This document shows positions 3,928-36,556 of a stretch of 64,000 nucleotides of DNA, one piece after another. A model generated the notes under the pieces. That model worked only from the letters and a program-made list of their open reading frames with translations, was not told the origin of the DNA and made no database searches. This DNA is from Actinomycetota bacterium (GTDB taxonomy: Bacteria; Actinomycetota; Acidimicrobiia; IMCC26256; PALSA-555), in assembly GCA_003140175.1 (NCBI GenBank), contig PLJD01000096.1, forward strand, positions 16,324-80,323. The letters run 5' to 3'. The first letter of the stretch is position 1; each line of letters opens with the position of its first letter. A program made the translations under genes and the position numbers.

Positions 3928-5415
3928 TTAGAGCGTCCCGAACTCCCCCGGGGCCGCCGGTTTCAACGGCACCCGCAGGCTGACCCGCGTCCCGTGGTCG
4001 TCGCGCATCTCGATCGAGCCGCCAAGCTCGCTGGTCACGAGCGCGTGCACGATCGACAGGCCCAGACCCCTCGAATCCTCGAGGGAGAAGTCAGGCGGCA
4101 GGCCGACGCCGTCGTCGACGACGTCGAGGGCCAGCTCGCCCTCCCGGCGGCGGACGATCACCCGCACGTGACCTTCGCTGGGGGCGCCGTCGGCGCCGTC
4201 TGGGAATGCGTGGTCGACGGCGTTTTGCATCAGCTCATTCAGGACGACCGCGAGGGGGGTCGCGATCTCTCCCGGCAGGAGCCCCGCGTTGCCCTCGACG
4301 TCGAAGTGCAGGCGCAGCTCGGGGGTCGAGACCGTCTCCTCCACGACTCGCACCAGCGGCCCGATGATCTCGGCGAAGTCGACAACGTCGGCCGCGTCGC
4401 GCGACAGGGTCTCGTGCACGATGGCGATCGAGCGGATCCGTCGCTCCGATTCCTGGAGCGCCTCTTGGGCCTCGGGGGTGCTCAGCCGCCGACCCTGCAG
4501 GCGTAGCAGCGCGGCGATCGTCTGGAGGTTGTTCTTCACCCGGTGGTGGATCTCGCGGATCGTGGCGTCCTTCGACAACAGGATCCGGTCGCGGCGGCGC
4601 AGGTCCGTGACGTCGCGCACGAGGATCATCGCCCCGGTCGAGCGTTTCCGCTCCAGCAGCGGGATGGCTTGGATCAGCACCGACGTCTCGCCCCGCTCGA
4701 TCTCCTCGGTGACCGGGACCCGCAGCCGGAACGCGGCCTCGGCCGCGTCCTGGTCGAAGCCGATCTCCCCGAGGAGCAGCCCGTGCGTGTACGCGTGGAT
4801 CCCCAACCGGTGCAGCGAGCTGATGGCGTTCGGGCTGGTGAACCGGATCCGGAGCTGGTCGTCGAGCAGGATTACGCCGTCGGCGACCCGGGGTGCCTCC
4901 TCCAGCGCCACCTCGTCGCGGGGGAACGGGAACGAGCCTTCGGTCATCATCCGGGCGAAGCGCTCGAAGGTGTCGAGGTAGACACGCTCGAGCTCCCCCT
5001 GGCGGCGCCCCGACGTGGTCGGCGACTCCCGAGACACCACCGCGATCGGCGCCCCGTCCAGCAGGAGCGGGATGCACTCCGTCCGGGCCCGCTCCGCCGA
5101 GCCCAGGACCGTTGCGTCGCCGCCCACGATCTCGAGCTTGCGCCACGCCCGAGCGACGAGTGGTCGCTCCACCTCCTGGACGACGGTGCCGATCAGCTCG
5201 GGGGGATACAGGGTCTGGCCGGTCACCGGACGGACGTGGGCGAGGACCACGAAGCGGTGCCCCTCCTCGCCCTCGACCGGCGCGAGGGCGAGCAGGTCGG
5301 CGAAGCACAGATCGGCGAGCGGCTGCCAGGACGCCACGAGCCGCTGGAGGTGGCGGAGCGTCGCACCCCGCAAGCCGGTGTTGGCGTGCGCGAGGTCAAA
5401 GAGCCCGACTGCCAT
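3928..5415 (-). CDS. pdtaS: Sensor histidine kinase PdtaS (H_kinase_N, PAS, HisKA_2)
   Basis: WQPLADLCFADL N-terminus, EIHHRVKNNLQ, ELMQNA, DDGVG, GLGL. Confidence 0.9.
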   Translation of the reverse strand: MAVGLFDLAHANTGLRGATLRHLQRLVASWQPLADLCFADLLALAPVEGEEGHRFVVLAHVRPVTGQTLYPPELIGTVVQEVERPLVARAWRKLEIVGGDATVLGSAERARTECIPLLLDGAPIAVVSRESPTTSGRRQGELERVYLDTFERFARMMTEGSFPFPRDEVALEEAPRVADGVILLDDQLRIRFTSPNAISSLHRLGIHAYTHGLLLGEIGFDQDAAEAAFRLRVPVTEEIERGETSVLIQAIPLLERKRSTGAMILVRDVTDLRRRDRILLSKDATIREIHHRVKNNLQTIAALLRLQGRRLSTPEAQEALQESERRIRSIAIVHETLSRDAADVVDFAEIIGPLVRVVEETVSTPELRLHFDVEGNAGLLPGEIATPLAVVLNELMQNAVDHAFPDGADGAPSEGHVRVIVRRREGELALDVVDDGVGLPPDFSLEDSRGLGLSIVHALVTSELGGSIEMRDDHGTRVSLRVPLKPAAPGEFGTL

Positions 5416-7588: not shown

Positions 7589-7819
7589 TCAGCCGGGGCC
7601 GAACCCGACCCGCTTGGTGGCCCCGTCAGCCTCGATCTCGACGTACACGACCCGCTCGGCAGGGACGCCGACCCGACGGCCCGACACGTCCGTCAGCCAC
7701 AACACGCCGCCCTTCCCCGCGAGCACGTCGTTGACCGACGTCTCGACCTCCGCGGCCGTGCCGGCCACCTCCAGGGCCAACTCCTTTGGCGAGTGGAGCA
7801 CACCGATGCGAACGTCCAT
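7589..7819 (-). CDS. DUF3107 family protein
   Basis: MDVRIGVLHSPKELALE...LWLTD..GRRVGVP...YVEI...VGF. Confidence 0.85.
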   Translation of the reverse strand: MDVRIGVLHSPKELALEVAGTAAEVETSVNDVLAGKGGVLWLTDVSGRRVGVPAERVVYVEIEADGATKRVGFGPG

Positions 7820-7866
7820 CCCGAGGACTGTACCGGCCGTCCCGGCGGGGGCTCGGCTCCGCCCGG

Positions 7867-9054
7867 TCAGGAGATCCGCAGCTCGGGGTGGCGGATGCGG
7901 CGCGGCGCCAGCGTGTCGACCTGTTCGGCGAGGGCGACGAAAGCCTGCGCGGCGAGACTGTCGGGCTCCGACACCGTGATCGGGTTGCCGACGTCGCCGC
8001 CCACCCGCAGCGCGGAGACGAGGGGGATCTGTCCGAGCAGCGGGACGCGGAGGGAGTCCGCCAGCTCCTGGCCGCCGCCAGCACCGAAGATCTCGTAGCG
8101 CTTCCCGTCGTCGCCGAGAAACCACGACATGTTCTCGACCACGCCGATCACCGCCAGGTTCACGCGCTCGGCCATCGCCGCGCTGCGCTGCGCGACCCGC
8201 TGCGCGGCCGGCTGGGGAGTCGTGACGACGATCACCTCGGCGCCCGGGAGCAGCTGGGCCACCGAGAGCGCGACGTCGCCGGTCCCCGGGGGCAGGTCGA
8301 CGACGAGCACGTCGGGCTCCCCCCAATGCACGTCGGTGAGAAACTGCTCGAGCGCCTTGTGGAGCATCGGGCCCCGCCAGATCACCGCCTGGTCGTCGCG
8401 GGCGAAGAACCCCATCGACACGAGCTGCACGCCGTGGGCGCGCGGCGGGATGATCACGTCGTCGATCACACCGGGTGGATGATCGACCCCGAACATCCGG
8501 GGCAGTGAGAACCCCCACACGTCGGCGTCGACCGCCGCGACCCGCCGGCCCCGCTGGGCGAGCGCCACCGCGAGGTTCGTGCTGACCGACGATTTGCCGA
8601 CCCCACCCTTGCCGGACGCGACAGCCAGGATCCGGGTCGACGCGTCAGTGAACGGGTTGCGCCGCGGCGCGGGAGCAGCGGGGCGGGCCGAGGCGTCGAC
8701 AACCGCCAGCGGATTCGGGGCTGCCTCACCCTTGAGCGCGCGGGCGGCGTCGACCGCCTCCGCCTCCGTCATGGCGCGCCGGTCGACCTCGACGTTCGTC
8801 ACCCCGGGCACCGCGCCGACGGCCGCCTCCACGCGGCGGAGCAGCGGCTCGGAAGGCCACCCCTCCTCGGGCAGCGCCAACGCGAGGTGCACGACCACCC
8901 GGTCCCCGGCTTGCTCCACCCCGGCGACCTCGCCCAGGTCCACGATCGAGAGTCCGAGCTCGGGGTCCTCGACAGCGCGAAGCGCCGCCCGGACCTGGGA
9001 GTCGTCGGCGGGCACGGCAGCCTCCGCGGGGACGGGATTTTCCACTACGGGCAT
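7867..9054 (-). CDS. mrp: Mrp/NBP35 (ApbC) Fe-S carrier ATPase with N-terminal DUF59
   Basis: DPELGLSIVDLG, SGKGGVGKSS, DADVWG, WRGPML, DLPPGTGD, ENMS. Confidence 0.9.
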   Translation of the reverse strand: MPVVENPVPAEAAVPADDSQVRAALRAVEDPELGLSIVDLGEVAGVEQAGDRVVVHLALALPEEGWPSEPLLRRVEAAVGAVPGVTNVEVDRRAMTEAEAVDAARALKGEAAPNPLAVVDASARPAAPAPRRNPFTDASTRILAVASGKGGVGKSSVSTNLAVALAQRGRRVAAVDADVWGFSLPRMFGVDHPPGVIDDVIIPPRAHGVQLVSMGFFARDDQAVIWRGPMLHKALEQFLTDVHWGEPDVLVVDLPPGTGDVALSVAQLLPGAEVIVVTTPQPAAQRVAQRSAAMAERVNLAVIGVVENMSWFLGDDGKRYEIFGAGGGQELADSLRVPLLGQIPLVSALRVGGDVGNPITVSEPDSLAAQAFVALAEQVDTLAPRRIRHPELRIS

Positions 9055-9070
9055 AGGTAGAATACCGGGC

Positions 9071-9841
9071 GTGGCCCCAGAGACCGCTTCGAGGCCTCGC
9101 CCCCGTCCCGACCCGAGCACCCCGCCGTCCGAGCGCGCGCTCAGCGCCGACGAGTTCACCGCCGCCGTCGCCGCGGTGACCAACGCCTTCGGCGACCCGA
9201 CCCGCCGGGAGATCTACCTCGCGGTCCGCGAGACCGCCGATGGGGTGACAACCGCCGATGTCGCCGAACGATTCGGCCTCCATCCCAACGTGGCCCGACA
9301 TCACCTCGAGAAACTCACCGGGGGCGGCTATCTGGCCGTGGACCCCGCCCGCGCCAGCGACGGCGCGCGGCCGGCGGGACGGCCCTCGAAGCGGTACCAG
9401 GCCACCGAACGCGACACGTTGGCGCTCCCGCTCCGCCAGGACGGGGTGCTCGCCAGCCTCCTCGCCCGCGCGCTCGACGCGCTCGGCGCCGACCAAGCCG
9501 AGGCGCTCGCCGATCAGGTCGGCTACCAATACGGCCGTGACCTGGCCAGCCGCATGGAGCCCGGCGCCGGCCACCGTTCGGCCCGAACCGCGCTCGCCGC
9601 GGTCGCCGACGCGCTCACCGCGCACGGGTTCGCCGCCCGGGCCGAGGCTCGCGGCGACGACTTCGCGATCATCTCAGAGTGCTGCCCGTTCGGCGACGCG
9701 GCCCAGCAATACCCCCACGTGGTCTGCGCCCTCGACCGGGGGATGATCCGGGGCATGCTCGCCGGCCTCTACGGCGAGACAACCCCGCATTTCGAATCGA
9801 GCCGCCCCGACGGCAGCGACCACTGCGTCGCCCGGGTCTGA
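9071..9841 (+). CDS. SufR-like winged-HTH transcriptional regulator
   Basis: GDPTRR, HPNVARHHL, GRPSKRY, C-terminal CCPF...VC...C; divergent from mrp and upstream of a cysteine desulfurase. Confidence 0.8.
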   Translation: MAPETASRPRPRPDPSTPPSERALSADEFTAAVAAVTNAFGDPTRREIYLAVRETADGVTTADVAERFGLHPNVARHHLEKLTGGGYLAVDPARASDGARPAGRPSKRYQATERDTLALPLRQDGVLASLLARALDALGADQAEALADQVGYQYGRDLASRMEPGAGHRSARTALAAVADALTAHGFAARAEARGDDFAIISECCPFGDAAQQYPHVVCALDRGMIRGMLAGLYGETTPHFESSRPDGSDHCVARV

Positions 9842-9851
9842 GACCCAGCCC

Positions 9852-11006
9852 GTGGCCCGGGCGTACCTCGACCACGCGTCGTCCTCACCACTCCGCACCG
9901 CGGCGCTGGAGGCGATGCTCCCGTTCCTCGCCGGGAATCCCGCCGACCCCGGGAGGGTCCACAGCGACGGGCGCGTGACCCGGGTCGCGCTCGAGGAGGC
10001 CCGCGAAGCCGTCGCCGCGCTCGTCGGCGCCCGACCCCGCGAAGTCGTTTTCACCGCCACCGGCACCGAGGCCGTGAACACCGCGGTGTGGGGAGCGATC
10101 GCCCACGGCGCGCCGCGACACGCCGGGACGAAGCGCAGCCATGTCGTCACCACGGCGGTCGAGCACTCGGCGGTGCTCGAGTCGTGCCAGCGTGCCGACG
10201 TGGACCTGACCGTCGTCGGAGTCGACCGGGCAGGCCGCTTCGACGCCCCGGCGCTGCTCGCCGCGCTCCGCCCCGAGACGGTCCTGGTCAGCGTGCAGCT
10301 CGCCAACCATGAGGTCGGCACCCTCCAAGGCGCCGTCCCCGACGTCGTGGCCGGCGCCCGGGCGCACGGCACGCTGGTGCACGTCGACGCGTGCGCGGCG
10401 GCCGGCCACGTACCGCTCGACTTCGCGACGCTCGGCCCCGATCTCTGCTCGATCACCGCCCACAAGCTCGGAGGACCGAAGGGCGCCGCCGCGCTCCTCG
10501 TACGACGAGGCGTGCGGATCCCCCCCTTCGTGGTCGGCGGCGCGCAGGAACGCGCCCGTCGCGCCGGGATCGAGGACGTGCCGGCGATCGTCGGGTTCGG
10601 CGCCGCGGCCCGCGAGCTCGTCGCCGGCGCTCGACTGGCGCAGGAGGCGGCGACCGCGCTCGCCCAGACCGAGGAGCTGCTCGACGCGGCACGAGCCGTC
10701 GAGGGCGTGACCCAGCTCGGCGATCCCACCTCCCGCCTCCCCCACCTGGTGTGCCTCGCCGTCGACGGCGTCGAAGCGGAGCCGGTCCTCTTGGGCCTCG
10801 ACCAGCGCGGGATCGCGGTGCACTCCGGCTCGTCCTGCTCGAGCGAAACGCTCGAACCGTCCCCGGTGCTCGCCGCCATGGGCGTCGACGCCGAGCACTC
10901 CCTGCGTCCCAGCGTCGGGTGGAGCACCACCAGCGCAGACATCGCCGCGTTCGCCACCGCCTTCCCGGAGGTGGTCGGGAAGCTCCGCGCGCTGCGCGGG
11001 GCGTGA
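9852..11006 (+). CDS. Cysteine desulfurase (IscS/NifS type)
   Basis: YLDHASSSP, EHSAV, ANHEVGT, HVDA, AHKLGGPKG, HSGSSCSS. Confidence 0.92.
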   Translation: MARAYLDHASSSPLRTAALEAMLPFLAGNPADPGRVHSDGRVTRVALEEAREAVAALVGARPREVVFTATGTEAVNTAVWGAIAHGAPRHAGTKRSHVVTTAVEHSAVLESCQRADVDLTVVGVDRAGRFDAPALLAALRPETVLVSVQLANHEVGTLQGAVPDVVAGARAHGTLVHVDACAAAGHVPLDFATLGPDLCSITAHKLGGPKGAAALLVRRGVRIPPFVVGGAQERARRAGIEDVPAIVGFGAAARELVAGARLAQEAATALAQTEELLDAARAVEGVTQLGDPTSRLPHLVCLAVDGVEAEPVLLGLDQRGIAVHSGSSCSSETLEPSPVLAAMGVDAEHSLRPSVGWSTTSADIAAFATAFPEVVGKLRALRGA

Positions 11007-11137
11007 CCGTCCTCGCCCGCGCCGCCGCACCGTCGAGCGGGGCGGACCCTGACCGCTCGGCGAACCGGGTCTTCCACCTCGGGTCCGCCGCGTCGGCAAC
11101 GGATTGGCTTGCGGCTCGCTCGCGTAGTGTGCAGCCC

Positions 11138-11860
11138 ATGACCACGACCGACTGGGCCCGCCTCGCCGACGACCTGACCGCAGCGCTAAACCTCGGGAAC
11201 GCGCCGATCGCCATCACCTTCAGCGCGGAGGCCCCCTCCGGGGTCGCACCCTTCGGGGCGCCGATGCCCGCACCCACCGACGATGGACGGACCGGCCGCG
11301 TCCCCGCCGGCTGCGTGTTCTGGATGCGCGCCGCCGACTCCACCTTCTCGACCGTCGCCGAGGACCACGCCAACTGTTCGGTCGGGTCCGCCACCCACGG
11401 TTTCAAGACCTTCGCCGAGGTCGCGGGGAACTCCGACGTCGCGACGCTGCTCGACGCCGGCTGGGTGACGATGGATATGGTCCCGGAGATCCCGGTCGTC
11501 GCGACCCGACCCGGCGCGGTCACCTACGGGCCGCTCGCCGAGTCGCCCACCGACCCCGACGTCGTCCTGCTGCGCGTCAACGGCAAGCAGCTCATGGTGC
11601 TCTCCGATGCCCTCCCGGGACTGCGCATCGAGGGCAAGCCGCAATGTCACATCGTCGCCGTCGCCAAAGAACAAGGTGAGGTCGCCGCGAGTGTCGGCTG
11701 TGCACTGAGCCGCACTCGGACCGGCATGCCCGCGACCGAGATGACCTGCGCGATCCCCGCGGGACGCCTCGCCGAGGTCCTCGACGCGGTGACCGCCACC
11801 GCGCGGGCCGACACCGCAGTGGCCCGCTACGCCGCGCAGGACGCGCAGCGCTTCGACTGA
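11138..11860 (+). CDS. DUF169 family protein
   Basis: AGCVFW, HANCSVG, TYGPL, PDVVLL, KPQC, SVGCALSR pattern. Confidence 0.75.
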   Translation: MTTTDWARLADDLTAALNLGNAPIAITFSAEAPSGVAPFGAPMPAPTDDGRTGRVPAGCVFWMRAADSTFSTVAEDHANCSVGSATHGFKTFAEVAGNSDVATLLDAGWVTMDMVPEIPVVATRPGAVTYGPLAESPTDPDVVLLRVNGKQLMVLSDALPGLRIEGKPQCHIVAVAKEQGEVAASVGCALSRTRTGMPATEMTCAIPAGRLAEVLDAVTATARADTAVARYAAQDAQRFD

Positions 11861-29588: not shown

Positions 29589-31097
29589 TCAGTCCCCGGG
29601 CAAACGCGACGCCGGCAGACCTAGCAGCGCGCTGCGAACAACATCAAGAAGCTCGTCATCGCTGAGTTCCAACGCCGACGGAGACACCAAGGCGCGCCTC
29701 CGCAACGATATGACGACCGCCATCAACATGATGGCCGTGAGCGCGCCGCCCATGCTTGCAACTCCGACGTGGAGACCGATCCAGCCCACGAGCCCGCCGG
29801 CGAGACCTCCGCCAACAAAGAGAGGCACATCGCTGCGGATAAGACCGACGGCTACATAACCCTCGACGCCGTGTTCTCGAAGTGATTCGATGAGCACGCT
29901 CAAATGCCAGCCAATCAGCGCAGCACAGCCAGCCACAGCCCCAGCGACCACCGCTCCGCCGGCCGATGAGACGAAGGCGGACGGAAGAAACACCGTGGCA
30001 CTCACAAGTACGGTCGCCCCAAGCACGATCGAGTAGGCCAGGCGACGTCGCGCGGAGTTGCTGACTGGCGGGGACAGCAGCGGAAGCCCGGTGGCGATAA
30101 GCACCACGAGTGGGCCCAAAGCCGGCTCACCACGATGGAACACGATGAACGCTGCGGACCCCGCCACTACCAACGCCGCACGAGCTGCTGCCGGCCGAAT
30201 GCGCACAAGGGCCAGCGCCCCCAGCCCGCCCAGACCCACCAAGGCCAGAAACTCAGCACTCGCGGGGAACTTCTCGGCGCTCGCGGTATCGGCCGAGATT
30301 CCGACCGCGAGAAGCACCCCTGCTGTGAGGGCCACGATTCCGGAGACTCGCCAAACCGATTTTGGGGCAAGCCGCCGCACGACGACCGGGTCGGCCACAA
30401 GTAGGAGCCCGACGAGCGCAAGGACCATTGCCCAGGTCCCCACGTCCCGCAGAACGACGTATCCCGCCACAAAGCCGAGAATTGCGAAGGGCAGCAACTC
30501 CGTCTCTGACCGAGTCAACTCTCGTATGTGGCGACCAAGCGAGCCGCCATCGGCGGCCCACAGGATCGCGGCGACTAGAACGTTGTTCACAGTCCAGTAG
30601 CCGACGACAGCGAGGATTGCGCTCAGCCCCACGGCGATCCACTCGGATGCACCAGCGACAAACAGGCTGCGACCCAGCGCTGCGGCCGCAAGAGTTGCGA
30701 GCGTCGTACAGGACGCGTTGACTACAAGTTTCCGGAATGCACCGTTTCGGACGTGATCCCAATGCAAGCCAGCGGCAAGACCGCAAACGGCTGGGACCCA
30801 GAGAGGACCTCCCGCAACCGCCGTCGCCGCAGCCGCCGACAGAATCACCATGCTCGAGTTGATGGCGGTCTCATCGCCAAAGATTGCAACACGTTGCGTC
30901 GCGACCACGCTCAGGACAACGAGCGCAGCGACGGTCCACGCGTCTACATCGCCCGGCCGGCCAAGGAGAAAGGCTCCGGCTAGCCCGGACGCCGCGGCGA
31001 GCCCAAGCACAACGGTCATCGCCTTCAAGACGACCGACGGCCGCTCCGGAACTGGCCTTCGACCGATTTGTTCTGCAGCGACCACTCTCGGTTTCAC
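29589..31097 (-). CDS. Polytopic membrane protein (MASE-like sensor, no visible output domain)
   Basis: Many hydrophobic segments; the N-terminal half resembles membrane sensor regions seen in front of HD-GYP/GGDEF domains; GTGA-coupled to the sigma gene. Confidence 0.6.
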   Translation of the reverse strand: MKPRVVAAEQIGRRPVPERPSVVLKAMTVVLGLAAASGLAGAFLLGRPGDVDAWTVAALVVLSVVATQRVAIFGDETAINSSMVILSAAAATAVAGGPLWVPAVCGLAAGLHWDHVRNGAFRKLVVNASCTTLATLAAAALGRSLFVAGASEWIAVGLSAILAVVGYWTVNNVLVAAILWAADGGSLGRHIRELTRSETELLPFAILGFVAGYVVLRDVGTWAMVLALVGLLLVADPVVVRRLAPKSVWRVSGIVALTAGVLLAVGISADTASAEKFPASAEFLALVGLGGLGALALVRIRPAAARAALVVAGSAAFIVFHRGEPALGPLVVLIATGLPLLSPPVSNSARRRLAYSIVLGATVLVSATVFLPSAFVSSAGGAVVAGAVAGCAALIGWHLSVLIESLREHGVEGYVAVGLIRSDVPLFVGGGLAGGLVGWIGLHVGVASMGGALTAIMLMAVVISLRRRALVSPSALELSDDELLDVVRSALLGLPASRLPGD

Positions 31098-31837
31098 GAG
31101 TCACCCCCCGGCGGCACGAGCCGATCGCCATAGAGGTCCTGCAGCTGCTGATAGCAGTCGGCACATGCCACGCACGTGGACAGGTGCGCTGAAATCTGGG
31201 CCCTGACCTTGCGACTGAGCTGGCCGCGCAGATACCGGCCGAGTTTCGAACGTACCGGTCGGCAGGTGCGGCACCCTCCCGATGCCGTGTGCTCGATGCA
31301 GAGGCCGACCAGCTCTTCCCGAGCCCGGTGTGCCCTCTGTCGCGCCGCGACCGGCGTGATCCCAAGCTGCTCAGACAACTCCAGAAAGCCAAGCCCCTCC
31401 ACGTAGCGAAGGACAAGCACTTCTCGGCTAGTTCGCGAGAGGGACTCAAACGCCTCGCGAGCGAGCACCGTGTCTAGCTCCGTCAGTACACGTTCCTCGG
31501 GGCCTGCCTCGGTCGCGGCGATGTGCTCGGCGGCATCTGCCCCAACAAAACGTCGGCTCCCCTGCTGTCGAAGTTGGTTCCGCCATAGATTTCGGACCGA
31601 CGTCAGCAAGTAGGCCTTAACGTTTGACGCGTCCTCGATGTATTGAGCCCGGCGCAGGACATTGAGAATTGCGGTGTGCGTCAGGTCCTCGGCCTCGGCA
31701 TCGCTACGAACAAGCCGCCTCGCAACTCGGAGCGCATCGCCTCGATACTGCGCGATGACCTGATCGAGTTCGTGATTTGGAGACCACTCCGCTCCACCCG
31801 GGCTCGACATCGACCCGCTCCCACCCTCCTGCCACAT
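31094..31837 (-). CDS. ECF sigma factor fused to a C-terminal zf-HC2 (ZAS) domain
   Basis: Region 2 AEAEDL...YLLTSVRN, region 4 LRYVEGL...RARE, C-terminal HLSTCVAC (HxxxCxxC). Confidence 0.88.
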   Translation of the reverse strand: MWQEGGSGSMSSPGGAEWSPNHELDQVIAQYRGDALRVARRLVRSDAEAEDLTHTAILNVLRRAQYIEDASNVKAYLLTSVRNLWRNQLRQQGSRRFVGADAAEHIAATEAGPEERVLTELDTVLAREAFESLSRTSREVLVLRYVEGLGFLELSEQLGITPVAARQRAHRAREELVGLCIEHTASGGCRTCRPVRSKLGRYLRGQLSRKVRAQISAHLSTCVACADCYQQLQDLYGDRLVPPGGDS

Positions 31838-32046
31838 CGAGGCGGGTAGGAAACTACCGGTGACGAGGTTCGATTGCTATGGGTGATCGCGGAAGGAAGG
31901 GATCGTTTCTATGTCACACACCTCGCGCGCTGGTGTCCTGCGTGCCTGCCCGGCCACAGCGCTTCCACGGTCGGTCCAGACGTCTCGAGGGATCCCCAAA
32001 TCCGTCGGTGCTCGGCCTGTGTCGGCGGGTTGGGTACCGTGAGGTC

Positions 32047-32601
32047 GTGTGGCTGCTGATCGCTACCGCGTTGGTCAGCCTTTTCGTCATCAGCCTCACG
32101 CACGGAAGTTTCGGCGAGTTGACAAGGTTGCGGGTCGCGGCGCCGTGGCTCCTCGCCACAGGACTCGTTGTCCAGGCGATCCTCGAATACATCGACATTC
32201 CAAGAAGCGACATCGATACCGTCGGTTATGGCTTGCTGATGGCCTCGTACGTCCTGATCCTCGCCTTCTGCGTTGCGAATATTCGAACCCGCGGATTCGG
32301 CGTGATCGCAATCGGCATAGCTCTAAACGCTCTCGTCATCGGACTCAATCAGGGCATGCCCACTAAGCCTGTGGGTGATGGTCCCCATGGCAACCGCGTC
32401 TTCAAACCCGTCGTTCAGACGGTCAAACACCGCCAGGAACGGAGCGATGATCTGTTGCGGTTTCTCGACGACCGAATCCTTTTTCCAAAGCCCTTCGACG
32501 AGTTGGTGTCGTTCGGCGACCTCGTCATGGCCGTAGGTATCTGCGAGTTGATGTACTACGCGAGCCGGCGGCCCGCAGGCGCTCCCGCCGTCACCGCGTG
32601 A
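32047..32601 (+). CDS. DUF5317 family membrane protein
   Basis: G.ALNALVI.LN.GMP, H, LDDRI and SFGD motifs. Confidence 0.85.
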   Translation: MWLLIATALVSLFVISLTHGSFGELTRLRVAAPWLLATGLVVQAILEYIDIPRSDIDTVGYGLLMASYVLILAFCVANIRTRGFGVIAIGIALNALVIGLNQGMPTKPVGDGPHGNRVFKPVVQTVKHRQERSDDLLRFLDDRILFPKPFDELVSFGDLVMAVGICELMYYASRRPAGAPAVTA

Positions 32602-33769
32602 GCAGTCCTCGACCTCGAAGGACCGATTCGAGCGCCGTCAGAACATTGCCGTCGTACACATAGGCCGGGCCGGTGAACAGAGCCTCGACCGCCCACGATG
32701 CGTGGGCATCGTCGCCCCCGGTCAGTTCGTCGTAGGCACTTGCGACCTTGAGGATCTGACCCATCAGTACCGCTCGGGTTTCCGACGGCGGATTCGAAGG
32801 GCGATGAAGCCCCGGTTCGGCGGCCACGATGTCGCCGGCATTGGCGAGCGCGTTGCTTGAGCGGAGCATGTCTGCGCCGGCCCTCGCGACGTCGGTGGCA
32901 TCCAGCTTTAGTCCGGTCGGCGGCTCGTCCAGGGACACTGCGCCGAGGTGATGCAGCCAAGCCGCGGTCTCGAGATCCCGGAGGCTGGCGTTGCTGACGC
33001 CGAGCTCTTGTCCGAGCCCAACGGATAGACCCGCCACCCGCTCAACATGTCCTTTGCGGGCTAGGCCACCGAGCTCTGGCGCGACTCCGAGCGCTTGAAC
33101 CGTTTGCTGGAACGTTCGACGAGTTCGGAGTAACAGCTCGTAGGAGTACCACGCAGCCAGGAGCGGAACCGAAAATAAGATTGGGCCCCAAAGGCCAAGC
33201 CCGCCTTGCCCGCCGATACCACCGTAACCAATTGCCATCAGCATTCCGCTGGTCGCGAGAGCTAGGTCAGCTCCACGACCCCGCCAGCGCGCCACGTACC
33301 CCTCCCGCAACAGAGTTACGAGATCGGCAACCACGAGTTCTGCGACTGCGGCTGCCGCCAGGGCACAGAAAACGACGAGTCGCGGATCTGAAGTAGCGCC
33401 GACGCGCATAGTCAGCTGAAACGCTGCGCCGGCACCGAGGCCCTCTGCGAGGTATTCAGCGAGCAGCAAGACTCGGCTTGGTATCCCACGCGGCTCCGTT
33501 CGCAGTGTCACGGCAACCACGGGAGCGAGGCTCGCGATCGCGACGAACTCGCCAGGCGACGCTGATCGCAGCAGTACGACGATGACCGCGAGGCCAACCG
33601 GAAGAGGGCTGCGCTGGTCGGGTCTCAACTCAAATATGTACCCGGCAACGAGAGCAGTACCGATCACGATCAGGTTGGTCGTGTCGGTGCTCGCGCCAGC
33701 AGCAATGGCGATGAGCAGGGTCAGGAAACATGCTCCGGCAAGAAGGAATAGGCGCCGCGCCTGGTTCAT
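32591..33769 (-). CDS. Membrane sensor fused to a degenerate HD-GYP domain
   Basis: N-terminal TM helices, then GHVERVA...AAWLHHLG...ILKVASAYDELT...YDGNVL; HD is HH, and HHE, GYP and RPY are absent. Confidence 0.85.
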   Translation of the reverse strand: MNQARRLFLLAGACFLTLLIAIAAGASTDTTNLIVIGTALVAGYIFELRPDQRSPLPVGLAVIVVLLRSASPGEFVAIASLAPVVAVTLRTEPRGIPSRVLLLAEYLAEGLGAGAAFQLTMRVGATSDPRLVVFCALAAAAVAELVVADLVTLLREGYVARWRGRGADLALATSGMLMAIGYGGIGGQGGLGLWGPILFSVPLLAAWYSYELLLRTRRTFQQTVQALGVAPELGGLARKGHVERVAGLSVGLGQELGVSNASLRDLETAAWLHHLGAVSLDEPPTGLKLDATDVARAGADMLRSSNALANAGDIVAAEPGLHRPSNPPSETRAVLMGQILKVASAYDELTGGDDAHASWAVEALFTGPAYVYDGNVLTALESVLRGRGLLTR

Positions 33770-34050
33770 GAGACCGTCTCCGTGCCATCGGCACACTCGC
33801 AACGACACGCCTCGGGCGGAGGTCGCTGTTCGCAGTGGCCAAGATACGCGAGCGCGGCACGCTGGGTGGGGAACGGTGCTGGATATGAGGACGTCGGTAT
33901 CGGCGATAGGTCTCGGCTCTCGCCGATGCCCGCCGCCGGCTGAGGCAGCATCGAGACTCCCGAGTGCGACCACATCTTGGCGATCGCCCAGGTGTGTGGA
34001 AAAGGCGGATTGGGCAGGGTCCCCGATCCAATCAGATGTTTCTCGTGGCG

Positions 34051-34140
34051 CTAGCGGAGGCCCTTGCCGGCACCGCCCGCGAGGACAAGTGCAGCAATGC
34101 TCGACCCGACAAGCGCAAGACGGACGATCAGCTTCTTCAT
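34051..34140 (-). CDS. 29-aa signal-peptide-like small protein MKKLIVRLALVGSSIAALVLAGGAGKGLR
   Basis: ATG at 34140, TAG at 34053-34051, AGAGGGGG RBS about 8 nt upstream; basic N-terminus, hydrophobic core, short tail. Below the ORF-track cutoff. Confidence 0.8.
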   Translation of the reverse strand: MKKLIVRLALVGSSIAALVLAGGAGKGLR

Positions 34141-34357
34141 AGCGAATTCCCCCTCTCTGAAAGCTCTCCTACCGGCTTCGCTATCCCCGGTGAGGTGAAC
34201 GCTCCGCTGATTCCCAACTGTTTGGGTTCCGTCGAGGCCCTGCCCATTCGACCCTCCCGGGCTCTCAACACAGGGCTCAGCTCGAACTCAAGCACAGGAG
34301 CAACTCTACGCGCCCCTGTAACTCTGCCGACGCCCAGCGGCGGTAGCCGCGATGTGT

Positions 34358-34373
34358 TGGGATCCACGTCACA
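34358..34373. promoter_or_regulatory. Possible CRP/FNR-type site TGGGA-N6-TCACA
   Basis: 9/10 match to TGTGA-N6-TCACA in the divergent region between the peptide gene and the 34427 ORF. Confidence 0.35.
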
Positions 34374-34426
34374 CGTCCGGGAGTTCCGTATCCTCCAAGC
34401 GGGACTAGTCGAGCTAAGGCGGCCCG

Positions 34427-35107
34427 ATGACCGAGCAGGGGATCGCGGGACTCGATGTCCAGGCGATCGAAAGTGAGCTCACTCGCCTTCCTGAGATTGT
34501 CGCCTGTCGCATCGTCGCTGATCCCCTCGGGCGCCCGCTCGAAGTTCATGTCTTGGCGCACCCTGGGAAACACCCAAAGCAGGTAGTGCGTGACATCCAA
34601 TCGGTCGCTTTGGCGTCGTTCGGCCTTGAGATCGATCGGCGGATCGTTTCAGTCGTTCAGCTTGGGCCCAGTGGTGCAGAGGGGGTCGAGCCGTCGCCAG
34701 CCCCGTTGGCCCGGATTGCGATCGGTGCAATTCAGTCGCAGTTGGAGGGGAAGCGGGCGACGATCCGTGTCACGCTTACATCGGGCAGCGTTGATGCGAC
34801 GGGGTTCGCTGAGGGATCGATTGCGGCAGCGACCCGTTTGCGTCTGGTCGCGACTGCGACGCTCGACGCGCTCCGCCAGCTACACAACTCGGCAGAGGCC
34901 ATCGAAGTGGAGCACGCGTCCATCGGCAAGGTGGGTAGCCAGGAAGTCGTCGCCGTAGCCCTCATCCTCGTCGATCCACCACACGAGTACGAGCTGGTCG
35001 GGACCGCCCTGGCGCGCCAGTCGCCCGACGTCGCGACCGTCCGAGCAGTCCTCGACGCAGTCAACCGTCGGATCTCGTATCTGTCGGGAGAGCACACGGT
35101 CTCCTGA
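34427..35107 (+). CDS. Conserved hypothetical protein (EVHVLA...KQVVRDIQS family)
   Basis: EVHVLAHPGKHPKQVVRDIQS...IDRRIVSVVQL; C-terminal ATVRAVLDAVNR. Confidence 0.85.
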   Translation: MTEQGIAGLDVQAIESELTRLPEIVACRIVADPLGRPLEVHVLAHPGKHPKQVVRDIQSVALASFGLEIDRRIVSVVQLGPSGAEGVEPSPAPLARIAIGAIQSQLEGKRATIRVTLTSGSVDATGFAEGSIAAATRLRLVATATLDALRQLHNSAEAIEVEHASIGKVGSQEVVAVALILVDPPHEYELVGTALARQSPDVATVRAVLDAVNRRISYLSGEHTVS

Positions 35108-35126
35108 TCGCGCGCAGAATCGGCTG

Positions 35127-36212
35127 ATGGGTACTCGGACTGCGGTCCTGCTCTCATACCGTCTGGGCGGCCAGGACGGGGTGTCGGTGGAGGCCCGGAA
35201 ATGGCAATGGGCGCTCCAGCATCTTGGCTTTGCGGTCCGCCGGGTCGCGGGTGAGTTCGACGACGATCTCTCGGCGGCTGACATCTGCTTGCCGTTCCTG
35301 GCCCGTGAGCGTCGGCCCGGTCAGCCCGCAGAGCACCGCGAGATCGGCCGGGCGGTCGCGGACGCTGATCTGGTCGTCGTCGAGAACTTGTGCTCACTGC
35401 CCTTGAACTTGGAGGCGGCCCGGGCCGCGGCTGCGGCGTTGGCTGCTTTCGCCGGGCGGGTCGTGTTTCATCATCACGACTTGCCGTGGGAACGGGCCGA
35501 GTTCGAGCCCTACACGGAGTTTCCCCCGCGCCGGTCGAACTCACTCCACGTCGTGATCAGCGAGCAGGCTCGTGCGGCACTGGCCCTTCGGGGGATGGAC
35601 GCGGTGACGATCCGCAACGGCTTCGACCTCGATGCGAAGCCGGGACGGCGCACGTCCACGCGGCGCCGCCTCGGATTTAGTCCCCAGGACGTCGTCGTGC
35701 TCCAGCCCACCCGCGCGATTGCGCGCAAGGACGTCGGCCGGGGGTTAGATCTCGCCGAGCGCCTCACCGTCGAGCTGCCGCGACGCCGCGTGCGTTACTG
35801 GCTCACCGGGCCCGCCGAGGATGGCTATGCAACCACCCTCGAGGACATCCTCGGTGCGGCCCGGATCTCGACCACCCACCTGCGCACCGAGAACGTGTCG
35901 GATGCCTATGCCGCATCGGACGTCGTGGTGATGCCGTCACGGTGGGAGGGATTCGGCAACCCGGTCATCGAGGCGATGATCGCCAGACGGCCGGTCGCAT
36001 CCGCTCCGTACCCGGTGCTGCGCGAACTCCTGGAGCTCGGGCTACACGTCCTGCCCATCGACGATCCGAGCGCCGTCGCGAGATTCCTCCAACGCCCGGA
36101 TGCGGGCATCTTGGAGGGCAACCGGGACGTCGTCGCGCGGGAGCTCGCTCTCGCCGACCTGCCCAAGCGGCTGACGGACGCGTTCGGGCGGGTAGGTTGG
36201 GCTGACTGGTGA
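35127..36212 (+). CDS. Glycosyltransferase family 4
   Basis: DGVSVE..KW, QPTRAIARK, PSRWEGFGNPVIEA. Confidence 0.9.
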   Translation: MGTRTAVLLSYRLGGQDGVSVEARKWQWALQHLGFAVRRVAGEFDDDLSAADICLPFLARERRPGQPAEHREIGRAVADADLVVVENLCSLPLNLEAARAAAAALAAFAGRVVFHHHDLPWERAEFEPYTEFPPRRSNSLHVVISEQARAALALRGMDAVTIRNGFDLDAKPGRRTSTRRRLGFSPQDVVVLQPTRAIARKDVGRGLDLAERLTVELPRRRVRYWLTGPAEDGYATTLEDILGAARISTTHLRTENVSDAYAASDVVVMPSRWEGFGNPVIEAMIARRPVASAPYPVLRELLELGLHVLPIDDPSAVARFLQRPDAGILEGNRDVVARELALADLPKRLTDAFGRVGWADW

Positions 36213-36487
36213 GCGAGCCCTCTGACCCGATCCTGCAACAGCGCGCACGGATCCGCCACTTCGTGGCGGTCGCACAACGCTGCGGGTACGGGGCGATGCT
36301 GCTGGCCATCGTGTTCTTCGGGATCGGGGCAGCCACCAACTTTCCCGACTGGACCGTTGTGTCGACCGTCACCACGCTCGTGATCTCCATGGCCGTCCTC
36401 CCGGTCCCCATCGTCCTGGGCTATGGCGTGCGCGCGGCCGAGCGGGAGGACCGTCAGCGCCAATCCCCCGAGCGCGGCGCCGAGTAG
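36209..36487 (+). CDS. Small two-TM membrane protein
   Basis: Coupled to the GT4 gene; PIVLGYGVRAAEREDR. Confidence 0.75.
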   Translation: MSEPSDPILQQRARIRHFVAVAQRCGYGAMLLAIVFFGIGAATNFPDWTVVSTVTTLVISMAVLPVPIVLGYGVRAAEREDRQRQSPERGAE

Positions 36488-36556
36488 CGGTTCGCCCGAC
36501 CGCCGGACGACCATCTACCCTCGGACCGATCGGGCGACCACCGAAGGGAGATCGCC

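What the first reader, a model, noticed from the sequence alone, without database searches (positions are those of the whole stretch)
32047..35107. Candidate undescribed peptide-signalling system: small peptide, membrane HD-GYP receptor, DUF5317 processor and conserved partner
Seen: a 29-aa signal-like peptide gene (34051-34140) lies upstream of and co-oriented with a multi-TM sensor/HD-GYP gene. DUF5317 converges on that gene with an 11-nt overlap, and a conserved KQVVRDIQS protein is divergent from the peptide. From memory (not searched), DUF5317, membrane HD-GYP genes and similar LAxGA-tailed peptides recur together in several Gram-positive phyla. Inference: agr-like logic (precursor, membrane peptidase, membrane receptor) but wired to an HD-GYP/c-di-GMP-type output rather than a histidine kinase.
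Basis: partly seen in the sequence, partly recalled or inferred. Interest (0 to 1): 0.9.

Follow-up and report, generated by a model that had tools for sequence, protein, structure and literature searches.

The report
Peptide, MASE9 sensor, DUF5317 gene module
A 29-residue membrane peptide gene lies beside a membrane sensor and two proteins of unknown function, and this gene set recurs in two bacterial phyla, which suggests an undescribed part of how these sensors work.

Summary

- **Conserved module.** The window carries a rearranged copy of a module: a KQVV-family protein, a 23-32-aa peptide, a MASE9-type membrane sensor and DUF5317.
- **Second phylum.** In a Clostridia-type phylum it is one co-directional operon. 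All 45 of 45 loci with KQVV plus a sensor carry the peptide, 34 by HMM and 11 by inspection.
- **What the peptide follows.** It tracks the MASE9 membrane domain whatever the output: HD-GYP, histidine kinase or GGDEF-EAL.
- **Own genome.** A peptide HMM finds only two hits genome-wide. Each lies just upstream of a MASE9-like HD gene.
- **The window's receptor.** It is an HdgB-like degenerate HD-GYP protein, with HD changed to HH and no HHE or GYP.
- **DUF5317 fusions.** It is fused elsewhere to MASE9-HD-GYP, to EAL and to MFS exporters.

The agr-like reading, with DUF5317 as processor and a released tail as signal, is neither shown nor excluded. Peptide-sensor pairs persist in genomes without DUF5317. 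My preferred reading (about 0.45) is that the peptide is a stable membrane partner of MASE9, with DUF5317 as an accessory. My searches found no paper naming DUF5317, and the MASE9 and HdgA/HdgB passages I read mention no such peptide.

The parts
34051..34140 (-). pep: a 29-aa single-span peptide gene (MKKLIVRLALVGSSIAALVLAGGAGKGLR). It has a basic N-end, a hydrophobic core ending in L-A-G-G-A, and a 5-residue basic tail.
   Evidence: The ORF is. By eye, an SD-like GAGGGGGA lies 8 nt upstream. Homologues occur in 27 of 34 order-level loci, 28 of 60 Actinomycetota loci and 35 of 60 second-phylum loci by HMM. The genome-wide HMM gives 2 hits only. Neither Pfam nor NCBIfam holds a matching family. 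Metatranscriptome contigs cover 33751-34130 and 33879-34132.
32591..33769 (-). Membrane sensor: a divergent MASE9-like polytopic domain (about residues 1-220) followed by a degenerate, HdgB-like HD-GYP domain. The open frame runs on to 33973, but 33769 is the likely start.
   Evidence: Pfam HD_5 scores 20.6 bits, below its 27.2 cut-off. hhalign of the membrane part against a local MASE9 profile gives probability 97.6%, E 2.9e-12 over 196 columns, against 0.26% for the reversed control. The Pfam MASE9 model itself finds nothing in this genome. Motif states are LHHLG in place of HD, with no HHE and no GYP. Orthologues lie beside DUF5317 in relatives.
32047..32601 (+). DUF5317 membrane protein (184 aa). 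It converges on the sensor gene and overlaps it by 11 nt.
   Evidence: Pfam PF17248 scores E 7.9e-20. Invariant residues are N78, N94, N101, M104, P105, G157 and D158, and D142 is nearly invariant. The start is supported by homologues that begin MWLL or VWLL. An RNA contig covers 32080-33127.
34427..35107 (+). KQVV-family protein (226 aa). I saw no hydrophobic span in it. It has two conserved halves and is divergent from pep.
   Evidence: It matches no Pfam or NCBIfam family. The alignment across two phyla has invariant E39, Q52, R55, D56, R96 and G192. It is the first gene of the canonical operon in 45 of 60 second-phylum loci. At least 2563 clusters exist; the named ones among the 120 listed are called hypothetical. 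Only weak, sub-threshold LeuA_dimer hits appear, in 7 of 32 members. RNA contigs with the highest depth begin at 34408 and 34430.
29589..31097 (-). Second MASE9-like membrane protein (502 aa) with no recognised cytoplasmic output domain. It lies downstream of the sigma factor gene and overlaps it by 4 nt.
   Evidence: It has no Pfam hit. The local MASE9 HMM scores E 1.1e-11 on residues 52-234. It shows tblastn similarity to the MASE9 part of HdgA-like genes of relatives.
31094..31837 (-). ECF-type sigma factor with a fused C-terminal zf-HC2 (anti-sigma type) domain. It is divergent from DUF5317.
   Evidence: Pfam finds Sigma70_r2, Sigma70_r4_2 and zf-HC2. NCBIfam gives sigma70-ECF at 92 bits. 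It is syntenic in relatives.
35127..36487 (+). GT4 glycosyltransferase (35127-36212) and a 92-aa protein (36209-36487). They lie downstream of KQVV and are conserved with it in the order.
   Evidence: Pfam finds Glyco_trans_1_4 and Glycos_transf_1. The order KQVV, GT, p92 is kept in most order-level loci, including some that lack pep and the sensor.

Best explanation
**What it is.** The window holds a rearranged copy of a gene module conserved in Actinomycetota and in a Clostridia-type phylum. The module has four parts:
- a KQVV-family protein;
- a 23-32-aa single-span peptide, with a basic N-end, about 17 hydrophobic residues ending in L-A-G-G-A, and a 4-5-residue tail carrying K/R and W;
- a MASE9-type polytopic membrane sensor;
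- DUF5317.

**Most likely mechanism.**
- The peptide is made as a stable membrane micro-protein that packs against the MASE9 domain as its small partner.
- DUF5317 is a second, dispensable membrane partner. It acts near the outer-leaflet end of the peptide, where its own conserved NGG.MP, LGD and S.GD motifs are predicted to lie.
- Together they set the state of whatever cytoplasmic output is fused to MASE9.
- In this window the output is a catalytically dead, HdgB-like HD-GYP domain. It probably signals by binding rather than by hydrolysis. Candidate partners are c-di-GMP, the HdgA-like paralogue on contig C112, and KQVV.
- KQVV belongs to the HD-GYP output side.

**Shown:** the genes, their conservation, adjacency, fusions, and presence in RNA libraries.

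**Inferred:** translation, membrane insertion and topology, all physical contacts, and the direction of signalling.

The claim that these genes form one functional set I hold at about 0.9. The confidence given below is for the mechanism.
For: **The peptide follows MASE9.**
- In the second phylum, 35 of 35 HMM-detected peptide ORFs lie directly upstream of a sensor gene on the same strand.
- The other 11 of the 45 KQVV-plus-sensor loci have a peptide-like ORF in the gap.
- In Actinomycetota, 30 of 32 peptide ORFs lie within 500 nt of a MASE9 or HD-GYP gene. No locus has a peptide without a sensor, out of 28 loci with a peptide.
- The outputs beside the peptide vary: HD-GYP, HisKA_3 or GAF kinases, and GGDEF-EAL.
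- In the window's own genome the only two peptide genes each precede one of the two MASE9-like HD genes, on different contigs.

**Conservation runs along the whole hydrophobic span, not only the tail.**
- Position -18 is R or K in 70 of 95 peptides.
- L at -5 occurs in 71 of 96, A at -4 in 69, G at -3 in 79, G at -2 in 88 and A at -1 in 82.
- The tail is 4-5 residues in 78 of 96 and has an interfacial K/R plus W make-up.

**DUF5317 is linked to sensors but dispensable.**
- It lies next to a sensor in 48 of 60 second-phylum loci and 26 of 60 Actinomycetota loci.
- It is fused as MASE9-HD_5-DUF5317 in L210 and as DUF5317-EAL in Euzebya.
- Phyletic co-occurrence over 301 genomes is 92 with both, 29 with DUF5317 only, 38 with MASE9 only and 142 with neither. 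Kin are not independent in this count.
- Both families ring in the same 2 of 14 control genomes.

**KQVV goes with HD-GYP-type loci.** In the locus maps, no KQVV lies beside a sensor gene at the kinase-type or GGDEF-EAL-type loci.

**Prior view.** Galperin and Chou proposed that MASE9 binds its ligand within the membrane (passages read).
Against: - **No contact is shown.** The structure and complex predictors were closed.
- **The peptide looks like a signal peptide.** It has the n-h-c layout of a Sec signal peptide, with small residues at -3 and -1.
- **Never fused.** In 18,523 stop-to-stop frames, all 6 peptide-like hits in long frames lie at the C-terminal end of the frame, with no sensor domain in that frame.
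- **Tandem copies.** Some loci carry 2-3 tandem copies (L105; L224, L227, L228 and L108). That is more usual for precursor peptides.
- **MFS fusions.** DUF5317 is fused to MFS exporters in all 73 proteins listed and in 5 of the 60 Actinomycetota loci. Three of those five lie beside a peptide plus a MASE9 sensor. This hints at transport.
- **Not an obligate subunit.** Six of 22 Actinomycetota KQVV-plus-sensor loci show no peptide even on inspection.
- **Weak domain assignment.** The window's own MASE9 assignment rests on profile-profile similarity only. The Pfam model does not reach it.
Confidence: 0.45

Rival explanations
1. Processed peptide signal. The peptide inserts with its N-end inside and its C-end outside. 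It is cut after L-A-G-G or G-G-A at the outer face, by DUF5317 or by signal peptidase. A product, either the 4-5-residue tail or the membrane-retained fragment, is then sensed by MASE9.
For: - The peptide has an n-h-c layout with G at -3 and A at -1, followed by a constant 4-5-residue tail.
- It always has a free C-end and is never fused.
- Some loci carry 2-3 tandem copies.
- DUF5317 has two conserved Asp, in LGD and S.GD motifs. By the positive-inside rule, which is my own reading and not a predictor, they face outward, near where L-A-G-G-A would sit.
- DUF5317 is fused N-terminally to MFS_3/MFS_1 exporters.
- Of 20 sensor loci from genomes without a DUF5317 hit, only 2 keep a canonical L-A-G-G-A peptide. 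One family carries peptides without G-G-A.
Against: - No peptidase family is hit by any of 22 DUF5317 members at E up to 10, and there is no PDB relative.
- Two genomes of the sample in which one search found no DUF5317 (G133 and G144) keep canonical L-A-G-G-A peptides. The window genome's second peptide-sensor pair has no DUF5317 beside it.
- G at -2 is nearly invariant, in 88 of 96 peptides. From my own knowledge, the signal peptidase rule does not require that.
- The tail is similar across two phyla rather than diversified as pheromone tails usually are.
- Fusion of DUF5317 to the C-end of the receptor or to EAL is odd for a dedicated processing enzyme.
- No exporter or importer is conserved in the canonical operon. 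Its flanks are hpf and secA-prfB.
Confidence: 0.25
2. Hydrophobic small-molecule route. DUF5317 is a substrate-handling membrane module tied to export, as its MFS fusions suggest. MASE9 senses that lipid-like compound inside the membrane. The peptide is an adaptor or co-receptor, not the signal.
For: - DUF5317-MFS fusions appear in all 73 proteins listed and in loci L103, L112, L122, L128 and L141. L103, L122 and L128 lie beside a peptide plus a MASE9 sensor.
- DUF5317 also occurs far from any sensor, in 18 of 60 Actinomycetota loci.
- It has invariant polar Asn residues in predicted membrane segments.
- The literature proposes intramembrane ligand binding for MASE9.
Against: - No biosynthetic genes are conserved with the module.
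- The MFS fusions are a minority form.
- This reading does not explain why the peptide is so strictly kept with MASE9.
Confidence: 0.12
3. The small ORF is a cis-acting leader or upstream ORF that tunes expression of the sensor gene. Its product has no role of its own.
For: It lies upstream of the sensor gene and is co-oriented with it in most loci.
Against: - The amino-acid motif, length and stop position are conserved across two phyla.
- In kinase-type loci the ORF lies on the opposite strand from the neighbouring sensor genes (for example L101, L102, L123).
- The 281-nt spacer in the window folds no better than shuffles, z -0.16.
- Rfam has no hit there.
Confidence: 0.03
4. The neighbourhood is conserved by descent only, and the four genes share no function.
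For: - Synteny within the order extends to unrelated genes such as ACC, AKR and TetR.
- In the second phylum the operon sits in a conserved hpf-secA-prfB backbone in 25-27 of 48 loci.
Against: - The set survives changes of order and strand between lineages and across two phyla.
- Two kinds of fusion join DUF5317 to sensor proteins.
- The duplicated sensor in the window's genome carries its own peptide copy.
Confidence: 0.03

Closest known systems
HdgA/HdgB of Streptomyces venezuelae (vnz24090, vnz24095); MASE9-HD-GYP proteins such as Thermotoga maritima TM1467
   Same: The architecture matches: a polytopic membrane domain followed by an HD-GYP domain. An active-type gene followed by a degenerate one in tandem is what most relatives of the window show between the peptide and DUF5317. 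The window's protein matches the degenerate HdgB type, which lacks GYP (PMC6205966 passages). MASE9 was defined on TM1467 and HdgA.
   Different: The passages I read do not mention a small peptide gene, DUF5317 or the KQVV protein. They report no phenotype for hdgA or hdgB deletions. In the window's genus the HdgA-type gene has moved to another contig with its own peptide copy, and its HD domain lacks the HHE-to-GYP segment.
agr quorum sensing (AgrD precursor, AgrB membrane peptidase, AgrC receptor); features recalled, not from a call
   Same: A small peptide gene lies beside a polytopic membrane protein and a polytopic membrane receptor. In some lineages the receptor is a histidine kinase.
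   Different: No AgrB family hit appears in 22 DUF5317 members at E up to 10. The peptide is a signal-peptide-like span with a 4-5-residue tail. As I recall it, AgrD is instead an amphipathic leader, a core and a charged tail. Processing is not shown. The receptor domain is MASE9.
Small membrane proteins that modulate sensors or join membrane complexes (MgrB or SafA with PhoQ; KdpF; CydX); recalled, not from a call
   Same: The peptide is a single-span product of fewer than 50 residues. It is encoded beside the membrane protein it would act on, and it is conserved within the membrane span.
   Different: There is no sequence relation. Pfam and NCBIfam give only chance-level hits. The partner here is a MASE9 domain with c-di-GMP-type, kinase or other outputs, and a third membrane protein, DUF5317, is part of the set.
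Short hydrophobic peptide pheromones (SHP with Rgg; enterococcal pheromones cut by Eep); recalled, not from a call
   Same: Size and shape match: M-K-K, a hydrophobic stretch, and small residues near the C-end. Tandem copies occur in some loci.
   Different: As I recall, those receptors are cytoplasmic and need peptide import. Here the candidate receptor is an integral membrane domain, and no Opp-type importer or Eep-like protease is conserved nearby.

Membership tests
DUF5317 (PF17248) | Match to the Pfam model above its gathering score | tested here: met
   The match scores 71.8 bits against a cut-off of 25, E 7.9e-20, on residues 28-169. The whole-genome search finds this single copy.
HD-GYP c-di-GMP phosphodiesterase (PF13487 HD_5) | Match to the Pfam model above its gathering score | tested here: not met
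   The match scores 20.6 bits against a cut-off of 27.2. The whole-genome HD_5 search does not list the window's gene.
HD-GYP c-di-GMP phosphodiesterase (PF13487 HD_5) | Catalytic motifs: HD, HHE and GYP | tested here: not met
   When aligned with Pfam-validated HD-GYP proteins, the window has LHHLG in place of LHDIGK. It has no HHE, no GYP, and AS in place of AD before the retained Asp. The first His (GH..RVA) is retained.
MASE9 (PF20972) | Match of the N-terminal membrane region to the Pfam model | tested here: not met
   There is no MASE9 hit for the window protein, nor anywhere in the genome at E 0.01 or better.
MASE9 (PF20972) | Profile-profile homology to members that Pfam does recognise | tested here: met
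   hhalign of 19 orthologues against a local profile seeded from Pfam-positive MASE9 regions gives probability 97.6%, E 2.9e-12 over 196 columns. The reversed control gives 0.26%. The local HMM alone is weak, E 2.8e-4.
agr-like peptide signalling | A membrane peptidase of the AgrB kind that processes the precursor | tested here: not met
   No AgrB or other peptidase family appears among the hits of 22 DUF5317 members at E up to 10, and there is no PDB relative. Peptidase activity itself cannot be tested here.
agr-like peptide signalling | Precursor is cleaved and a product is released and sensed | not testable with these tools
   Only sequence features are available. RNA contigs show presence in RNA libraries, not protein forms.
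Sec-type signal peptide | Basic n-region, hydrophobic h-region, and small residues at -3 and -1 | tested here: met
   Across 96 anchored peptides, R or K stands at -18, positions -17 to -4 are hydrophobic, G is at -3 in 79 and A at -1 in 82. No signal-peptide predictor was available, and cleavage was not tested.
Conserved KQVV-pep-MASE9 sensor-DUF5317 module (defined here) | All four genes lie within one locus | tested here: met
   The same four genes occur in order-level relatives, in Actinomycetota and, as one operon, in the second phylum.

The most novel reading that the evidence does not exclude
The peptide is a membrane-embedded pro-signal. DUF5317 is a new kind of membrane peptidase or export module with two conserved Asp at the outer face. 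It cuts or hands over the peptide at L-A-G-G-A. The MASE9 domain then senses the product inside the membrane. This would be a widespread peptide signalling route, unrelated to agr, that feeds c-di-GMP enzymes, histidine kinases and perhaps an ECF sigma factor in at least two phyla.
Probability: 0.22. Interest if true: 0.9.

Novelty: new variant of a known kind. Interest (0 to 1): 0.78.

Why it matters
- **An open question becomes testable.** What MASE-type membrane sensor domains detect is not known. For MASE9 the only proposal I read is 'a ligand within the membrane'. HdgA and HdgB mutants have no phenotype because, as the authors say, the activating signal is missing.
- **Concrete candidates.** A micro-peptide and two protein families without annotation travel with MASE9 across phyla and across output types. 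They are candidates for the missing input or for parts of the receptor.
- **Feasible experiments.** Tagging the peptide, deletions, two-hybrid tests and c-di-GMP read-outs are all possible in Streptomyces or Clostridia.
- **Annotation gap.** The peptide gene is often not annotated. It is absent from the Natranaerobius record, and 4 of 6 peptide sequences were not in the 15-billion-protein collection.
- **First functional context.** DUF5317 and the large KQVV family (at least 2563 clusters) gain a functional setting for the first time.

Tried and rejected

No fold search was therefore possible.
- Complex prediction of peptide plus MASE9 region plus DUF5317 was not available.
- The ESM Atlas gave only unnamed clusters for KQVV. 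It could not read DUF5317.
- PDB profile searches found nothing significant. The best for KQVV was E 0.15, and for DUF5317 E 1.3.
- Rfam found no hit in 31000-36500.
- The spacer between the peptide and the sensor showed no excess structure. No promoter-like site was found, and the terminator-like sites were near chance.

**Leads followed and dropped**
- The first 'longer' search with the window's DUF5317 showed no fused domains. Long open frames around many high-GC DUF5317 genes turned out to be empty upstream extensions: L106, L123, L131, L116, L138, L139, L140, L142, L143 and L144.
- The idea that the peptide is a split-off first helix of MASE9 found no support, because no fused form exists.
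- A LeuA_dimer relation for KQVV stays below the Pfam cut-off, at best 22.3 bits against 24.9. I keep it as a lead only.
- dN/dS on the peptide is near 0.4, but dS is saturated. I count that as weak support at most.
- RNA contigs cannot give strand or level, and DNA carry-over in RNA libraries is not excluded.

**Limits of what I could see**
- I could not reach phyla beyond two with genome context. Thermus and Thermotoga are known only as control genomes that hold both families.
One example is the MASE9 alignment figure of the Galperin and Chou paper. They might mention gene neighbours.
- The claim that the partners are not in print rests on these searches: DUF5317, 0 papers; MASE9, 2 papers. 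It also rests on the passages read.

**Selection of loci**
- I picked the 60 Actinomycetota loci by hand from the 150 matches listed. The criteria were high scores, spread over families and long open frames, and genomes marked unpublished were left out.
- I picked the 60 second-phylum loci from 60 different genomes across the whole ranking of the 105 matches listed.
- The 20 MASE9-only loci came from the 38 such genomes: 8 from one family and 12 from others.

Full report
**What is in the window**

One search lists the ORFs, and searches give their families. From left to right the locus reads as follows.

| Coordinates | Strand | Gene | Family evidence |
|---|---|---|---|
| 29589-31097 | - | 502-aa membrane protein | none in Pfam |
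| 31094-31837 | - | ECF-type sigma factor with fused zf-HC2 | Pfam, NCBIfam |
| 32047-32601 | + | DUF5317 | Pfam 71.8 bits, cut-off 25 |
| 32591-33769 | - | polytopic membrane protein with an HD-like C-terminal domain | HD_5 20.6 bits, below the 27.2 cut-off |
| 34051-34140 | - | 29-aa ORF ('pep') | none |
| 34427-35107 | + | 226-aa protein with the KQVVRDIQS motif | none |
| 35127-36212 | + | GT4 glycosyltransferase | Pfam |
| 36209-36487 | + | 92-aa protein | none in Pfam |

- DUF5317 and the HD-like gene converge and share 11 nt.
- The HD-like frame is open up to 33973. Three homologues start at the position aligned with 33769.
- The names carried by close DUF5317 relatives place the organism in Acidimicrobiia.

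**Is the small ORF a gene?**

- In 34 loci fetched around DUF5317 from 33 relatives of the same order, a peptide HMM finds a homologue in 27.
- Together with the window's own peptide, one search listed 26 such peptides. They are 28-30 aa long, begin at ATG, GTG or TTG, and by eye all have a purine-rich SD-like run within about 15 nt upstream.
- Third codon positions carry the most differences: 2642, against 1867 and 1326 at positions one and two. dS is saturated, so this is weak support.
- Across the whole genome of the window, with 81,772 small ORFs, the HMM has two hits, at E 3.4e-12 and 5.7e-9. The next best is E 3.8, and the best on reversed sequences is E 2.7.
- Contigs from two metatranscriptomic runs of two studies cover most of pep, the start of KQVV and DUF5317 at 99% identity or better. 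Depth along the locus is very uneven. Contigs give no strand, and DNA carry-over cannot be excluded.

**What the receptor is**

- The membrane domains of the neighbouring sensor genes in other lineages match Pfam MASE9 (PF20972). The outputs fused to them are HD_5, HisKA_3 plus HATPase, GAF-HisKA-HATPase or GGDEF-EAL.
- The Pfam model does not reach the window's own protein.
- A profile of 19 orthologues aligns to a local MASE9 profile with probability 97.6% and E 2.9e-12 over 196 columns. The reversed control gives 0.26%.
- The C-terminal domain is a degenerate HD-GYP. It has LHHLG where active proteins have LHDIGK, no HHE and no GYP.
- This matches the published pair in Streptomyces venezuelae: HdgA is active-type and HdgB is degenerate. 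They form an operon, are membrane-bound and show no deletion phenotype (passages, passages).
- Most relatives of the window have both genes in tandem between pep and DUF5317.
- In the window's genus only the HdgB type remains there. The HdgA type lies on contig C112, directly preceded by a second pep copy. Its HD domain lacks the HHE-to-GYP segment.
- The genome has 17 GGDEF matches, so c-di-GMP signalling as such is present.
- The 502-aa protein next to the sigma factor is also MASE9-like, with local HMM E 1.1e-11.

**How far the gene set reaches**

*Actinomycetota.* DUF5317 occurs in 121 of 301 sampled genomes. In 60 loci that I picked from that list:

| Feature | Count |
|---|---|
| loci holding a MASE9 gene | 40 of 60 |
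| loci with a sensor within 400 nt of DUF5317 | 26 of 60 |
| loci holding pep | 28 of 60, all of them with a sensor |
| loci holding KQVV | 23 of 60 |
| MASE9-HD-GYP genes | 36 |
| MASE9-kinase genes | 21 |
| MASE9-GGDEF-EAL genes | 5 |
| MASE9-only genes | 2 |

Thirty of 32 pep ORFs lie within 500 nt of a sensor gene. Gene order and strand differ between families.

*Named records outside the window's class.*
- Natranaerobius thermophilus and Subdoligranulum variabile plasmid records show the order KQVV, pep, MASE9-HD-GYP, DUF5317.
- An Euzebya pacifica plasmid has DUF5317 fused to an EAL protein beside GGDEF-EAL genes.

*Second phylum.* Through a MAG titled 'uncultured Clostridia bacterium' I sampled its phylum.
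- DUF5317 occurs in 99 of 301 genomes.
- In 60 loci, 48 have the sensor next to DUF5317, 45 have KQVV and 35 have pep by HMM.
- All 35 pep ORFs lie directly upstream of the sensor gene on the same strand.
- The other 11 loci with KQVV and a sensor have a pep-like ORF in the gap. That makes 45 of 45.
- One locus has MASE9, HD_5 and DUF5317 in a single frame.
- The operon there often sits between hpf and secA-prfB. Conservation within that phylum is therefore partly by descent. The cross-phylum recurrence, the rearrangements and the fusions are what argue for a functional link.

*Co-occurrence.* Over the 301 Actinomycetota genomes, the Pfam hits for DUF5317 and MASE9 sort as follows:

| | MASE9 hit | no MASE9 hit |
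|---|---|---|
| DUF5317 hit | 92 | 29 |
| no DUF5317 hit | 38 | 142 |

- Several genomes scored 'DUF5317 only' do have MASE9-like genes that the Pfam model misses. The window's own genome is one.
- Kin are not independent, and the tallies include genomes marked unpublished.
- Both families ring in the same 2 of 14 control genomes, Thermus thermophilus and Thermotoga maritima.

**The peptide family**

Ninety-six peptides could be anchored on the G-G-A motif.
- R or K stands at -18 in 70 of 95.
- A hydrophobic run follows from -17.
- L at -5 occurs in 71, A at -4 in 69, G at -3 in 79, G at -2 in 88 and A at -1 in 82.
- The tail is 4 or 5 residues in 78, with K or R at +1 or +2 and W at +3 in 45 of 94.
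- No Pfam or NCBIfam model matches beyond chance.
- The peptide is never fused to a sensor in the frames examined.
- Some loci carry two or three tandem copies.

**DUF5317**

- Across two phyla the invariant residues are three Asn in or near predicted membrane segments, G-x-M-P, L-G-D, and S-x-G-D followed by a Gly.
- By the positive-inside rule, the conserved loop and these motifs would face outward. This is my own reading of the alignment. No predictor was run.
- There is no peptidase or other family hit at E up to 10 in 22 members, and no PDB relative.
- Besides the two sensor fusions, DUF5317 is the N-terminal domain of MFS_3/MFS_1 transporters. That holds for all 73 proteins listed and for 5 of my 60 Actinomycetota loci. 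In one of the five, HEAT repeats follow.
- Three of those five lie beside pep and a MASE9 sensor.

**Is DUF5317 needed for the peptide?**

- In 20 sensor loci from genomes of the sample without a DUF5317 hit, two keep a canonical L-A-G-G-A peptide, in G133 and G144.
- One family of small genomes has pep-like ORFs without G-G-A, in up to three tandem copies.
- Several loci show none.
- The peptide-sensor pair can therefore exist without DUF5317. The canonical motif is rarer there, but this is a lead resting on few independent lineages.

**KQVV**

- In the locus maps it accompanies the HD-GYP-type loci only. It does not lie beside a sensor gene at the kinase or GGDEF-EAL types.
- It has two conserved halves and no curated family.
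- It gives only sub-threshold LeuA_dimer similarity, in 7 of 32 members.
- It has no PDB relative. At least 2563 clusters exist, and the named ones among the 120 listed are called hypothetical.
- I infer that it belongs to the HD-GYP output side.

**Reading**

The robust result is a conserved set: pep plus a MASE9 sensor, usually with DUF5317, and with KQVV when the output is HD-GYP.

I prefer the model in which pep is a stable membrane partner of MASE9 and DUF5317 is an accessory. My reasons are these:
- pep follows MASE9 regardless of output;
- pep is conserved along its whole span;
- pep persists without DUF5317;
- DUF5317 is found fused to sensors.

The processing model keeps real weight, for these reasons:
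- the signal-peptide-like layout;
- the constant short tail and the free C-end;
- the tandem copies;
- the two conserved Asp of DUF5317;
- the MFS fusions.

Deciding between the two needs protein-level data or complex models, and neither was available here.

**Novelty**

- No paper in the searchable library names DUF5317.
- MASE9 appears in two papers. One is the paper that defines it, and the passages I read there do not mention these partners.
- The Streptomyces papers treat hdgA and hdgB alone.
- Supplements were closed and might hold neighbourhood figures.
- I therefore rate this as a new variant of a known kind: a known receptor family with unrecognised, widely conserved partners.

Noticed in passing
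window 29589-31837 (- strand): An ECF-type sigma factor with a fused zf-HC2 anti-sigma-type domain overlaps by 4 nt a 502-aa MASE9-like membrane protein that has no recognised output domain. The pair lies divergent from DUF5317 and is syntenic in the family. It may be a MASE9 input to an ECF sigma factor.
   Followed up: partly
own genome contig C112, 9121-9213 (-); locus L222:5742-7271: A second peptide gene lies directly upstream of an HdgA-like MASE9-HD gene. The HD domain of that gene lacks the HHE-to-GYP segment. No DUF5317 or KQVV was detected within the 13-kb stretch.
   Followed up: partly
L103, L112, L122, L128, L141; proteins P0141-P0213: DUF5317 forms the N-terminal domain of MFS_3/MFS_1 (DHA3-like) transporters. 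In L103, HEAT repeats follow. Three of these genes sit beside a peptide and a MASE9 sensor gene.
   Followed up: partly
L224, L227, L228 (also L223, L225, L229): One family of small Actinomycetota genomes has no DUF5317 hit. Its MASE9-HD-GYP gene is preceded by one to three tandem copies of a 23-aa peptide that lacks the G-G-A motif. Further upstream lies another ORF of about 50 aa with a single membrane span.
   Followed up: no
window 35127-36487; order-level loci: A GT4 glycosyltransferase and a 92-aa protein follow KQVV in most relatives. In some lineages they follow DUF5317 directly where pep, the sensor and KQVV are missing (L043, L062, L064). The best NCBIfam hit, mannosylglucosylglycerate synthase, is far below its cut-off.
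   Followed up: no
L161-L220 (for example L161:3098-3661 and 7749-11579): In the second phylum the four-gene operon often sits between hpf (ribosome hibernation factor) and secA-prfB. This holds in 25-27 of 48 loci.
   Followed up: partly
L096 (Natranaerobius thermophilus plasmid NZ_CP144220.1): The DUF5317 reading frame is split into three frames in this record. The peptide ORF at 4383-4469 is not annotated. An annotated 65-aa 'hypothetical protein' overlaps the sensor gene's start.
   Followed up: no
window 34408-34666: RNA-library contigs of two runs begin at 34408 and 34430, with adapter letters at the loose ends. These lie just around the KQVV start codon at 34427, and this stretch has the highest depth of the locus. 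Contigs of both runs also end at 34130 and 34132, inside the first codons of pep.
   Followed up: no
L101, L102, L123, L125, L126, L131, L133, L151, L157: In one Actinomycetota family the peptide gene lies on the opposite strand between two tandem MASE9-HisKA_3 kinase genes, and DUF5317 converges on the second kinase gene.
   Followed up: no
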